Origin: a virus
Taxonomy: Duplodnaviria; Caudoviricetes
Virus record (IMG/VR): IMGVR_UViG_3300044949_002606
Coordinates: 1-57,930 of that record
Direction: 5' to 3' (one strand)
DNA length: 57,930 nt
Positions 31,935 through 33,021 of the stretch are shown here, piece after piece. The notes under the pieces are model-generated. The model saw only the letters and a list, made by a program, of their open reading frames with translations, ran no database searches and was not told where the DNA came from. The position numbers and the translations under genes are program-made. The first letter of the stretch is position 1; every line of letters begins with the position of its first letter.

Positions 31935-32296
31935 GATGCAGTTGTCCTTTCTAAGATGCGTTGGCGGTTGATGGCGAGGGCGGCGGCGGTGGGCTCCCAG
32001 TCTTGGAACCAATCCGTGCCGACCTCGACCATCGGCGGGTAGGCGTAGCTGGGCTTGTACCCGCGGCGCAGCATCTCCTCCTTGAGCCGGAAGAACCGCC
32101 GTGAGCAGTAGCCCAGCCGCGAGTAGAAGAACTTAACGTGCCCAGCGCCCAACGTATACTGCGTAGGCGCCACGAGCGCGGCGCGCTTGGGGTAAGCCCT
32201 GTCCGCCAGCGCGAAAACGCGCGGCAGCTCGCGGTACTCGGCCAGCAGGTGCTGCCGCGAGAGCTCTTCGGGAGGGACGCAGTTGATGCGGGTCAT
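31931..32296 (-). CDS. denV: Pyrimidine-dimer DNA glycosylase (T4 endonuclease V-like, 121 aa)
   Basis: MTRIN...L..QHL.AEYRELPR with T2, R3, R22, E23 and R26 in place; LGAGHVKFFY. Confidence 0.93.
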   Translation of the reverse strand: MTRINCVPPEELSRQHLLAEYRELPRVFALADRAYPKRAALVAPTQYTLGAGHVKFFYSRLGYCSRRFFRLKEEMLRRGYKPSYAYPPMVEVGTDWFQDWEPTAAALAINRQRILERTTAS

Positions 32297-33021
32297 GATT
32301 GACGGTCCTTGCGCATGGCGTCGACGATCTTGAGCAACTTGCCTTTCTTGAGCAGGTCGCCGCCGTACTCGGCTTCGGCGAAAGATTCGATCTCCGCAAA
32401 GTGGTCGCGCCCCTGCCTGAACAGGAACTTCGCCGCCCAAGGGTGCACGGCGAGCACGGCGTCGGCCATGGCTTGCGCCACGCGCTGGTACTCGCCTTGC
32501 GTGCGGCCGCCGGTGCGGCTCGCCACCAGCTCCGACAAGGCGCGGAGGTTGAACTTGGCGCAGATGTTGGTGGCGATGTTGGTGGGGAGAATGCCGCGGG
32601 CGTCCTCGGGCGGGAGCCCGAGCTGGATGAGCCGGCGGTAGGCGTTGCGGATCTGGTGGTTGACCAACCCCACGACGCCCGCCGCGTCAGCATTGTTCGC
32701 CACCCGGTCGGGCATCACGTAGTCGTACTCGCCCATGTCCAGCACGCGCATCGTCTGCTGAGCGTAGCTGGCGTTGCGGCTCCGCACGAACTGGTGGGTG
32801 AAGGCGCGGCTGACGCCTTCGATCATGAACACGTAGTCGACGAACTCCCACGAGCTGGGGATGGTGGCGGCCATGTATTCGAGCTCGGCGAGCTTCTTTT
32901 CCTCGGGCCAGCTCATGATCTCGTCCATCAAGCCCGGCGACATGTTCAGTCGCGTGGACTTGGTGAAGATGAGCAGCTCCGCCGCGTGAGGCGTGTGGCT
33001 GATGAGAGAGACCTTCATCAC
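32293..33021 (-). CDS. thyX: Divergent flavin-dependent thymidylate synthase homolog
   Basis: EGVSRAFTHQFVRSRNASYAQQTMR, EDARGILP, NLR.L...R.....Q.E. Confidence 0.88.
   Translation of the reverse strand: MMKVSLISHTPHAAELLIFTKSTRLNMSPGLMDEIMSWPEEKKLAELEYMAATIPSSWEFVDYVFMIEGVSRAFTHQFVRSRNASYAQQTMRVLDMGEYDYVMPDRVANNADAAGVVGLVNHQIRNAYRRLIQLGLPPEDARGILPTNIATNICAKFNLRALSELVASRTGGRTQGEYQRVAQAMADAVLAVHPWAAKFLFRQGRDHFAEIESFAEAEYGGDLLKKGKLLKIVDAMRKDRQS

What the first reader, a model, noticed from the sequence alone, without database searches (positions are those of the whole stretch)
32293..33021. ThyX homolog with a rewired active site
Seen: the ThyX signature RHRxxSxxxxSxRY reads RSRNASYAQQTMRV (His to Ser, catalytic Ser to Thr, Tyr to Val). 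The upstream GHxSxxEH segment reads TIPSSWEF. Known: that upstream His (His53 in Thermotoga ThyX) stacks on methylene-tetrahydrofolate, while the conserved Arg residues bind dUMP and FAD. Inference: dUMP/FAD binding is kept but folate binding may be lost, implying a different C5 donor and a new reaction.
Basis: partly seen in the sequence, partly recalled or inferred. Interest (0 to 1): 0.8.

Follow-up and report, generated by a model that had tools for sequence, protein, structure and literature searches.

The report
Phage ThyX variant with partner flavoprotein
This phage gene belongs to a large, phage-only branch of the flavin-dependent thymidylate synthase family that has swapped out a set of key active-site residues and always sits beside a second flavoprotein, so it either makes ordinary thymidylate in an unusual way or starts a modified-thymine pathway.

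Summary
ORF 32293-33021(-) is a full-length ThyX homologue (Pfam Thy1, E 8e-32; model pLDDT 95). It reads RSRNASYAQQTMRV and TIPSSWEF where T. maritima ThyX reads RHRIASYNELSGRY and GHETPFEH.

This is not a one-off. It is the hallmark of a large, phage-restricted ThyX branch that includes Pbunavirus, Wifcevirus, Carpasinavirus, Rhizobium jumbo phages and many uncultured phages. The branch keeps every dUMP/FAD-binding arginine. It replaces, as a set, His53, Asn85 and Tyr91, which form a hydrogen-bonded gate in T. maritima ThyX.

The variant gene always has a 300-aa flavoprotein of UGM/amine-oxidase fold upstream: 77 of 80 IMG/VR loci (the 3 misses are truncated), 9 of 9 MAG contigs and 5 of 5 phage genomes. 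Canonical ThyX loci never do (0 of 71, 0 of 5).

No carrier tested has ThyA. Pbunavirus carriers F8 and 14-1 were recently shown to carry sugar-derived hypermodified thymidine, with no genes assigned.

My odds are about 45% a partner-assisted dTMP synthase and about 37% an entry enzyme for C5-modified dUMP. Function is untested. This scan noted the same variant on many other windows, and earlier follow-ups reached similar readings.

The parts
32293..33021 (-). ThyX-variant gene (242 aa from the GTG; probable start is the ATG at 33018). Variant motifs are at aa 53-60 and 80-93.
33387..34298 (-). Partner flavoprotein, 303 aa, phrog_4828. It has an N-terminal GxGxxG and E28 dinucleotide-binding motif and a UGM / protoporphyrinogen-oxidase / amine-oxidase fold. 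It is always found upstream of the variant ThyX.
33076..33489 (-). Small ORF between the partner and ThyX with a weak NrdR-like zinc-ribbon match (E 0.0011, below the Pfam cut-off). The start is uncertain. It was found in 15 of 80 related loci.
31931..32296 (-). Pyrimidine-dimer DNA glycosylase (DenV-like). Its ATG overlaps the ThyX stop codon (ATGA).
31443..32012 (-). HAD phosphatase of the PNKP-phosphatase type (the true start is probably internal). Found in 41 of 80 related loci by a strict phmmer search.
31153..31488 (-). Small helical protein, DUF6378-like. It matches the C-terminal part of phrog_4889 and is fused to the HAD domain in Pbunavirus. Found in 64 of 80 related loci.
30476..31156 (-). 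Short-chain dehydrogenase/reductase (FabG-like). Found in 36 of 80 related loci.
29989..30471 (-). VOC (glyoxalase-fold) protein. Found in 29 of 80 related loci.
26598..29992 (-). DnaQ-like exonuclease (29417-29992) and DnaE-type DNA polymerase (26598-29420), the downstream end of the same 4-nt-overlap gene string.

Best explanation
The ORF encodes a member of a phage-restricted subfamily of flavin-dependent thymidylate synthase homologues (called ThyX-v here).

Shown:
- It has the ThyX fold.
- It keeps all arginines that hold dUMP and FAD in solved ThyX structures.
- It has replaced, as a conserved set, His53, Asn85 and Tyr91 (T. maritima numbering), plus His59 and Trp181.
- It has gained conserved Lys21, Arg24, Trp58 and Tyr178.
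- It is always encoded just downstream of a second flavoprotein of UGM/amine-oxidase fold.

Inferred:
- It still binds FAD and dUMP and alkylates C5 of dUMP through a flavin-N5 carbon adduct.
- The most likely product is dTMP, supplying the phage's DnaE/DnaQ replisome.
- The remodelled folate/NADPH side has lost the canonical gate and the Tyr91 acid. It is served by the partner flavoprotein, which would either reduce the flavin or deliver the one-carbon unit.
For: Family membership:
- Pfam Thy1 matches end to end.
- The NCBIfam thyX equivalog TIGR02170 scores 94 bits against a cut-off of 87.9.
- The AlphaFold model has pLDDT 95.1. Its best Foldseek matches are all ThyX structures, E about 1e-12, TM 0.66-0.72.

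Substrate side kept: R80 99%, R82 96%, R92 92%, R142 98%, R160 96%, R169 95%, Q77 95% and E59 98% among 95 top representatives.

Sole thymidylate synthase homologue:
- No ThyA in the complete 57.9-kb genome.
- No ThyA in 5 of 5 related phage genomes, including a 207-kb Rhizobium phage that encodes ribonucleotide reductase and dUTPase close by.
- There were 494 ThyX places in 493 phage records, so there are essentially no second copies.

Other points:
- In Pbunavirus F8 and 14-1 about three quarters of thymidines remain canonical T (PMC12191111, section 8). The phage therefore needs dTTP.
- The T. maritima H53A mutant still binds folate in the crystal (4gtf title).
- A DenV-type pyrimidine-dimer glycosylase is translationally coupled to the gene. 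This suits ordinary thymine DNA, but only weakly.
Against: - Tyr91 and Ser88 are called strictly conserved and critical. Y91 mutants of T. maritima ThyX are 100- to 1000-fold slower (PMC8316439 and PMC11940539, passages). Here the Tyr91 position is V/T/I/A.
- The His53-Tyr91-Asn85 hydrogen-bond triad of the reduced enzyme is lost as a whole.
- A plain thymidylate synthase has no known need for a second flavoprotein, yet the linkage is absolute.
- The variant is absent from cellular genomes apart from 9 phage-like MAG contigs, in a scan of one genome per 185,579 species. No cell is known to rely on it for dTMP.
- Cultured carriers have hypermodified thymidine with no assigned genes, or unexplained resistance to restriction systems (PMC11990801, section 16).
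Confidence: 0.45

Rival explanations
1. ThyX-v is the entry enzyme of a thymidine-hypermodification pathway. With the partner flavoprotein it turns dUMP into a C5-substituted nucleotide other than dTMP. One option is 5-hydroxymethyl-dUMP, later etherified or glycosylated. The other is a direct adduct of an aldose C1 carbon. The product is incorporated or further tailored to give sugar-derived thymidine like that found in Pbunavirus DNA.
For: - Pbunavirus F8 and 14-1 carry new nucleosides of 362 and 390 U replacing about a quarter of T. They are read as a tetrose sugar-alcohol derivative and a cyclised aldopentose derivative, and no genes are named (PMC12191111, section 8; 'thymidylate' and 'ThyX' occur 0 times in that text).
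- Both phages carry ThyX-v, the partner and the HAD/DUF6378 gene.
- The partner's nearest solved fold is a sugar-nucleotide mutase that works through a flavin-N5-sugar adduct (UGM: VIA-align Z 19.1; Foldseek E 1e-9).
- ThyX can take an aldehyde (formaldehyde) onto flavin N5 as a carbinolamine (PMC8316439).
- The masses 362.34 and 390.35 equal dU plus a reductively coupled pentose and dU plus a hexose minus water. They equally fit 5-hmdU ethers or glycosides (my arithmetic).
- Accessory phosphatase, SDR and VOC genes travel with the pair.
- There is a precedent for thymidylate-synthase-family neofunctionalisation: ThyA homologues that hydroxylate dCMP with a flavin (PMC13326640).
Against: - The mark is TG-specific and partial. 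A nucleotide-pool enzyme does not explain that by itself.
- No glycosyltransferase, DNA kinase or other DNA-level tailoring enzyme turned up among the 29 window ORFs scanned against Pfam and/or PHROGs.
- The pair could be inherited with the DnaQ/DnaE module (67 and 55 of 80 loci).
- No modification data exist for this uncultured phage.
- ThyX-v and the partner are 93.8% and 97.3% identical between F8 and 14-1, although their modifications differ.
- An earlier in-house check of the same idea priced it at 33/100.
Confidence: 0.37
2. ThyX-v acts on another substrate (dCMP, UMP or a base in a polynucleotide), or serves mainly as a flavin-dependent redox or regulatory protein rather than a C5 alkylating enzyme.
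For: - The ThyX fold is known to accept another nucleotide in a natural-product pathway. PDB 4p5a matches the clade profile at E 7e-17; that it is the UMP/dUMP methylase PolB is recalled, not from a call.
- The Glu86 to Gln, Gly89 to Gln/Met and Tyr91 to Val changes lie in the active-site loop, residues 86-97.
Against: - Gln75 and Arg174, the residue that activates uracil, are conserved at 95%.
- The 5'-phosphate-binding arginines are all kept.
Confidence: 0.12
3. The gene is a decaying, non-functional ThyX copy and the motif changes are drift.
For: Hallmark residues are missing.
Against: - The replacement residues are themselves conserved across hundreds of 50%-identity clusters: I54 85%, W58 82%, F60 96%, A87 92%, K21 91%, R24 93%.
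- All relatives have intact full-length frames.
- The model has very high confidence.
- Inteins are inserted in some members.
Confidence: 0.02

Closest known systems
Canonical flavin-dependent thymidylate synthase ThyX (T. maritima TM0449, M. tuberculosis ThyX; EC 2.1.1.148)
   Same: Same fold, same length class, and the same FAD/dUMP-binding arginines, Gln75 and Glu58. It passes the Pfam and NCBIfam thyX models.
   Different: - His53 to Ile, His59 to Phe, His79 to Ser/Thr, Asn85 to Ala, Tyr91 to Val, Trp181 to Gly.
- New conserved Lys21, Arg24, Trp58 and Tyr178.
- An obligate neighbouring flavoprotein.
- Restricted to phages.
Pbunavirus (F8, 14-1) TG-context hypermodified thymidine (Yee, Lee et al. 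2025 preprint, PMC12191111)
   Same: F8 and 14-1 encode orthologues of this ThyX-v, the partner flavoprotein and the HAD/DUF6378 protein, in the same order next to DnaQ/DnaE.
   Different: The paper reports the chemical mark and names no biosynthetic genes. This window is an uncultured 65% GC phage of another lineage, about 40% identical to the Pbunavirus ThyX-v, with no DNA chemistry data. It also carries SDR and VOC genes, which the three Pbunavirus regions fetched do not show.
ThyA-family 5-hydroxy-dCMP synthases of RB69, DLP3 and RL38J1 (Lee et al., NAR 2026, PMC13326640)
   Same: A phage thymidylate-synthase homologue annotated as a thymidylate synthase that turned out to do different flavin-linked chemistry on a pyrimidine mononucleotide and to feed a glycosylated base.
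   Different: A different, non-homologous superfamily (ThyA, not ThyX) and a different base (cytosine). It is only a precedent, not a relative.
Bacillus phage SP-15 gp130 (Thy1-family protein guessed to be a hydroxymethyluridylate synthase; Kropinski et al. 2018, PMC5977210)
   Same: A divergent Thy1-family gene, directly preceded by an annotated reductase gene, in a phage whose DNA carries a five-carbon polyol chain on C5 of uracil.
   Different: - No significant sequence similarity to this protein (BLASTP E 1.8) or between the two reductases (E 5.3).
- No partner flavoprotein in SP-15.
- The function of gp130 is an untested guess.
UDP-galactopyranose mutase / protoporphyrinogen oxidase / amine oxidase flavoproteins (for the partner gene)
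   Same: FAD-binding fold and overall architecture: VIA-align Z 19.1 to 4dsg, 17.4 to 2ivd and about 15 to amine oxidases; Foldseek E 1e-9 to 3hdq.
   Different: It is only 303 aa, against 360-500 aa for those enzymes. It has 10-18% identity, no Pfam family above cut-off and no significant sequence hit to any solved structure. The family is virus-only in the Atlas.

Membership tests
ThyX / FDTS (PF02511, TIGR02170) | Thy1 fold and full-length profile match | tested here: met
   Pfam E 8.4e-32, model positions 2-191 of 191. TIGR02170 scores 94 bits against a cut-off of 87.9. Model pLDDT 95.1. Foldseek top hits are all ThyX.
ThyX / FDTS | ThyX signature RHRxxSxxxxSxR(Y) | tested here: not met
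   It reads R-S-R-N-A-S-Y-A-Q-Q-T-M-R-V. His79 and Tyr91 are missing and Ser88 is Thr.
ThyX / FDTS | His53, which stacks on folate and on the reduced flavin | tested here: not met
   Ile54 aligns with His53. The clade has I 85%, V 8%, L 3% at this position, against H 100% in 122 canonical sequences.
ThyX / FDTS | Arginines and Gln that bind dUMP and FAD (Tm R78, R80, R90, R147, R165, R174, Q75) | tested here: met
   R80, R82, R92, R142, R160, R169 and Q77 are present and 92-99% conserved in the clade.
ThyX / FDTS | dUMP to dTMP activity with CH2-THF and NADPH; thyA complementation | not testable with these tools
Indirect evidence only: it is the sole thymidylate synthase homologue in 6 of 6 carrier genomes.
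ThyX / FDTS | Homotetramer with active sites at subunit interfaces | not tested
   Only a monomer was modelled.
Pbunavirus-type thymidine hypermodification pathway | Orthologue present in phages that carry the mark | tested here: met
   F8 gp059 and 14-1 gp60 are ThyX-v. gp065 and gp66 are the partner.
Pbunavirus-type thymidine hypermodification pathway | Modified thymidine present in this phage's DNA, and the gene required for it | not testable with these tools
   The genome is an uncultured IMG/VR record. No genes are assigned in print.
UDP-galactopyranose mutase (partner gene) | UGM sequence family (Pfam GLF) and UDP-sugar-binding residues | tested here: inconclusive
   The fold is similar (Z 19.1). 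No Pfam family reaches its cut-off, identity is 16-18%, and substrate residues were not mapped.

The most novel reading that the evidence does not exclude
ThyX-v and its partner flavoprotein form a two-flavoenzyme 'sugar-thymidylate synthase'. An aldose or aldose phosphate is captured at C1 on reduced flavin N5, as UGM does with galactose and as ThyX does with formaldehyde. It is then attacked by C5 of dUMP and reduced, giving a C-C-linked 5-(polyhydroxyalkyl)-dUMP. This would be the origin of the 362 U and 390 U thymidine derivatives of Pbunavirus DNA, and perhaps of the restriction resistance of Wifcevirus. The broader version, in which any non-methyl C5 product feeds a hypermodified thymidine, has my odds of about 0.37.
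Probability: 0.12. Interest if true: 0.9.

Novelty: new variant of a known kind. Interest (0 to 1): 0.62.

Why it matters
Databases name hundreds of phage genes 'FAD-dependent thymidylate synthase', including those of the Pbunavirus phages used in therapy. Yet these genes lack residues that the ThyX literature calls strictly conserved and critical, and they never occur without a second, uncharacterised flavoprotein.

If the pair still makes dTMP, it is a new solution to flavin reduction or one-carbon delivery in ThyX chemistry. If it makes something else, it is the missing entry step for the sugar-derived thymidine just found in Pbunavirus DNA. It would also be a candidate explanation for unexplained restriction resistance in Wifcevirus.

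Either way the question is testable with two genes and cultured phages.

Tried and rejected
- Megablast of 10 kb around the gene against the phage collection found no match.
- Complex prediction with two copies of ThyX-v and the partner returned no verdict. It counts neither for nor against binding.
- SP-15 as a relative was rejected at sequence level. gp130 against this protein gives E 1.8, the two reductases give E 5.3, and SP-15 has no partner gene.
- Comparing F8 with 14-1 to find which module gene tracks the different modification was uninformative. ThyX-v is 93.8% identical, the partner 97.3%, and HAD/DUF6378 80.8%, mostly because of a linker indel.
- Rosetta-stone fusions: longer relatives carry inteins (P0198, P0208). 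Others carry N-terminal extensions that look by eye like homing endonucleases; the extensions of P0131 and P0214 had no Pfam hit. The extension of P0214 is not the partner. None of this gave a functional clue.
- The DUF6378 protein against PDB sequences hit only designed armadillo repeats, which I take as compositional.
- The partner profile against PDB sequences gave nothing significant.
- The careful tree did not finish. Only the quick IQ-TREE tree is reported, and my motif regex mislabelled some rows. Clostridium HMD-PC1 and Bacillus 268TH007 do have Tyr at the 91 position but were labelled 'no Y'.

Literature searches that found no paper describing the variant motif or the ThyX-partner pair were. 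That used all ten searches, counting. Koehn et al. 2012 (folate site) is not held, so what I say about H53 mutant kinetics rests on PDB titles and PMC11940539 only. The Extended Data of PMC12191111 and the S2 Table of PMC11990801 may bear on the modification and on restriction-site counts.
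Full report
**What the window is.** The window is a complete virus record of 57,930 bp with direct terminal repeats. It encodes terminase, portal, head and tail proteins, a DnaE-type polymerase, a DnaQ exonuclease, an SNF2 helicase and primases. It is an uncultured tailed phage of about 65% GC.

**The observation.** ORF 32293-33021(-) gives 242 aa. The DNA shows an AAAGGAAA ribosome-binding site followed by GTG-ATG, and a stop codon that overlaps the ATG of the next gene, a DenV-like glycosylase.
- The protein matches Pfam Thy1 over the whole model (E 8.4e-32).
- It just passes NCBI's thyX equivalog model (94 bits against 87.9).
- An AlphaFold model built on 87 relatives has pLDDT 95.1. 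Its best Foldseek matches are only ThyX structures (E about 1e-12, TM about 0.7).
- TIPSSWEF (aa 53-60) and RSRNASYAQQTMRV (aa 80-93) are present.
- In HMMER alignments these align with GHETPFEH and RHRIASYNELSGRY of T. maritima ThyX. A profile alignment to the M. tuberculosis and T. maritima chains gives the same register.
- The register is anchored by the PDB chains of the H53A and H53D mutants, which differ from wild type at exactly the position aligned with Ile54.

**It is a family trait, not a private oddity.**
- A search of 1.84 billion cluster representatives found 3261 relatives at E up to 0.001. Of the 150 best listed, I aligned the 118 that are 190-450 aa long, and nearly all carry the same altered motifs.
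- I compared 95 top representatives with 122 canonical (archaeal-type) ThyX sequences, as shown in the table below.
- The residues that hold dUMP and FAD are kept: R80 99%, R82 96%, R92 92%, R142 98%, R160 96%, R169 95%, Q77 95%.
- His178 to Arg is not special, because the canonical set also has Arg there.
- Ser88 is S/T/A in the clade, so 'Ser to Thr' is a minor point.
- In an unrooted quick maximum-likelihood tree of 72 rows, all 43 rows on one side of a branch with SH-aLRT 98 lack Tyr91. That side includes the query, Pbunavirus, Wifcevirus, Carpasinavirus, Rhizobium and Cronobacter phages. The careful search did not finish, and some labels were imperfect.

| T. maritima position | Variant clade (n=95) | Canonical set (n=122) |
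|---|---|---|
| His53 | Ile 85% | His 100% |
| His59 | Phe 96% | His 99% |
| His79 | Thr 67%, His 16% | His 100% |
| Asn85 | Ala 92% | Ser 92%, Asn 5% |
| Tyr91 | Val, Thr, Ile or Ala | Tyr 98% |
| Trp181 | Gly 71% | Trp 98% |

New conserved residues also appear in the clade: Lys21 91%, Arg24 93%, Trp58 82% and Tyr178 67%.

**What the lost residues do.** I read passages of three papers.
- PMC11940539. In reduced T. maritima ThyX the His53 imidazole stacks on the flavin and is held by hydrogen bonds to Tyr91 and Asn85. In the folate complex the same His stacks on the pterin. The His53-Tyr91 bond locks an 'OFF' state that closes the folate site. Y91 mutation slows flavin oxidation about 1000-fold. 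Tyr91 and Ser88 are called strictly conserved.
- PMC8316439. ThyX can activate formaldehyde as a flavin-N5 carbinolamine. Ser88 and Tyr91 are proposed as the acids that expel its hydroxyl.
- PMC5954106. ThyX has no enzyme nucleophile.

So the clade has replaced a complete functional triad on the folate/NADPH face while leaving the nucleotide face intact. It is not proof that folate is lost, because the H53A mutant was crystallised with folate (4gtf title). Trp58 sits one helical turn from the His53 position and could stack instead; that is inference only.

**The obligate neighbour.** Upstream lies a 303-aa ORF (33387-34298, phrog_4828).
- It has an invariant GxGxxG and Glu28 dinucleotide-binding motif and many invariant arginines.
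- Its model (pLDDT 86.8) resembles UDP-galactopyranose mutase, protoporphyrinogen oxidase and amine oxidases (Foldseek E 1e-9; VIA-align Z 19.1, 17.4 and about 15).
- It has no Pfam family, and its family is almost entirely viral.

Linkage with ThyX-v is complete wherever it could be tested:
- In 80 IMG/VR loci the partner lies upstream in 77. The 3 misses have ThyX at the very start of the fetched DNA.
- Among 80 loci from one genome per prokaryotic species, the 9 closest (37-69% identity) all have the partner plus phage DnaQ, and mostly DnaE as well. They are MAG contigs of 59 kb or less. Eight of the 9 matched my motif pattern, and all 8 lack His79 and Tyr91.
- The other 71 loci are canonical: all have RHR, 69 have Tyr and 2 have His at position 91. 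None has the partner.
- A partner profile hits 5 of 5 carrier phage genomes. It hits 0 of 5 phages with other ThyX types.
- In the phage collection the partner is in 362 records and the ThyX query hits 493. The counts are identical for Pseudomonas (292) and Escherichia (27). The surplus is Gordonia, Microbacterium, Bacillus, Clostridium and similar phages.

The pair is usually followed by a HAD phosphatase (41 of 80), a DUF6378-like protein (64 of 80), often an SDR (36) and a VOC protein (29), and then DnaQ (67) and DnaE (55). In this window the genes from 34885 down to 26598 are mostly joined by 4-nt overlaps. Because the replication genes travel with the pair, part of the linkage may be shared descent. 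However, the pair also occurs in 40-kb phages and in 207-kb Rhizobium phages with different surroundings.

**Evidence for ordinary dTMP synthesis.**
- ThyX-v is the only thymidylate synthase homologue. There is no ThyA in this genome or in 5 of 5 carriers, and no second ThyX copy.
- In the Rhizobium jumbo phage it sits a few kb from dUTPase and ribonucleotide reductase genes.
- All dUMP-binding residues are kept.
- Carriers still have mostly canonical T.

**Evidence for something else.**
- A lead from this scan's earlier notes pointed to two papers, which I then read myself.
- Yee, Lee et al. 2025 (PMC12191111; abstract, all of section 8 and passages) show that Pbunavirus F8 DNA resists enzymes whose sites contain TG.
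- They also show that F8 and 14-1 carry new nucleosides of 362 and 390 U replacing about a quarter of thymidines. These are read as a tetrose sugar-alcohol derivative and a cyclised aldopentose derivative. The text never mentions thymidylate synthase or biosynthetic genes for this mark.
- F8 and 14-1 both encode ThyX-v, the partner and the HAD/DUF6378 protein.
[quoted passage not shown] Bas100 carries the whole module.
- My arithmetic shows that 362.34 and 390.35 fit dU reductively coupled to a pentose, or condensed with a hexose. They fit 5-hmdU ethers or glycosides equally well, so the masses do not choose between routes.
- Kropinski et al. 2018 (PMC5977210, passages) guessed, without testing, that a divergent Thy1-family protein of phage SP-15 makes a modified uridylate. 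That protein shows no detectable similarity to this one.
- A real precedent for a thymidylate-synthase-family switch is the ThyA-type 5-hydroxy-dCMP synthase (PMC13326640).

**Weighing.**
- Against the modification reading: a pool enzyme does not explain TG specificity, I found no DNA-level tailoring enzymes in this window, and there are no chemical data for this phage.
- Against the plain reading: the loss of Tyr91 and His53, the absolute coupling to a second flavoprotein, and the absence of the variant from cellular genomes.

| Reading | My odds |
|---|---|
| Partner-assisted dTMP synthase | about 0.45 |
| Entry enzyme for a non-methyl C5 product | about 0.37 |
| Another substrate or role | about 0.12 |
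| Decay (drift) | about 0.02 |

**Novelty.**
- None of my ten literature searches produced a paper that describes this variant active site or the ThyX-flavoprotein pair.
- Public annotation calls the gene 'thymidylate synthase' and the partner 'hypothetical'. Once each the partner is called 'UDP-galactopyranose mutase', 'galactopyranose' or 'putative flavoenzyme', and in one Rhizobium phage 'polysaccharide deacetylase'.
- This scan had already flagged the same variant on many other windows, and earlier follow-ups reached similar readings. A later in-house check priced the bold reading at 33/100. My independent odds are close to that.

Noticed in passing
relatives P0153 and P0214; L004 6004-6921, L093 6001-6804, L002 6001-6759: A sub-branch of ThyX-v (Pbunavirus, Wifcevirus, Carpasinavirus) carries a four-cysteine pattern: Cys in 'RLC' at the position of query residue 171, plus three Cys in a C-terminal extension. 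Of 95 representatives, 31 have the first Cys, 28 the C-terminal triplet and 27 both. It may be a metal or Fe-S site. The window's own protein lacks it.
   Followed up: partly
relatives P0198, P0208 (inteins); P0131, P0214 (N-terminal extensions): Some ThyX-v genes are interrupted by inteins (Pfam Intein_splicing). The insertion is close to the R-x-R motif, because the C-extein resumes at Thy1 model position 71. Others are fused to N-terminal extensions that look by eye like homing endonucleases; the extensions of P0131 and P0214 had no Pfam hit.
   Followed up: partly
L005 3458-4420 (Rhizobium phage RHph_Y65, record 71857-72819): The partner flavoprotein of this phage (profile hit at record 71860-72795, E 2.9e-81) is annotated 'polysaccharide deacetylase' in the record. 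This is probably a misannotation.
   Followed up: partly
L089 188-1234 (Streptomyces phage PHTowN) and P0265: There is a second, very divergent ThyX-like type that also lacks His53, His79 and Tyr91. It has no partner flavoprotein in the genome. It sits on a long branch in the quick tree.
   Followed up: partly
relatives P0246, P0247, P0259, P0263, P0270: A small group lacks His53 but has Phe at the Tyr91 position. In the quick tree it sits on the canonical side of the main split.
   Followed up: no
window 26598-34885, minus strand: Ten genes, from a 196-aa unknown (34295-34885) through the partner, ThyX-v, DenV, HAD, DUF6378, SDR, VOC and DnaQ to DnaE, are mostly joined by 4-nt start/stop overlaps. 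This suggests one translationally coupled operon.
   Followed up: partly
window 34882-36624 (-), 22950-25042 (-): These regions encode a DUF932 protein (C-terminal 240 aa of a long ORF) and Pam3 gp33-like and gp34-like proteins of unknown function.
   Followed up: no
whole window: 38.9% of all T (both strands) are followed by G. If a TG-context mark like that of Pbunavirus existed here, it would touch more than a third of thymines.
   Followed up: no
L174 45026-46911 (Bacillus phage SP-15): In SP-15, whose DNA carries dihydroxypentyl-uracil, the divergent Thy1-family gene 130 directly abuts an annotated reductase gene 129. The gene order resembles the ThyX-v and SDR pairing here, but the sequences are unrelated.
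   Followed up: yes
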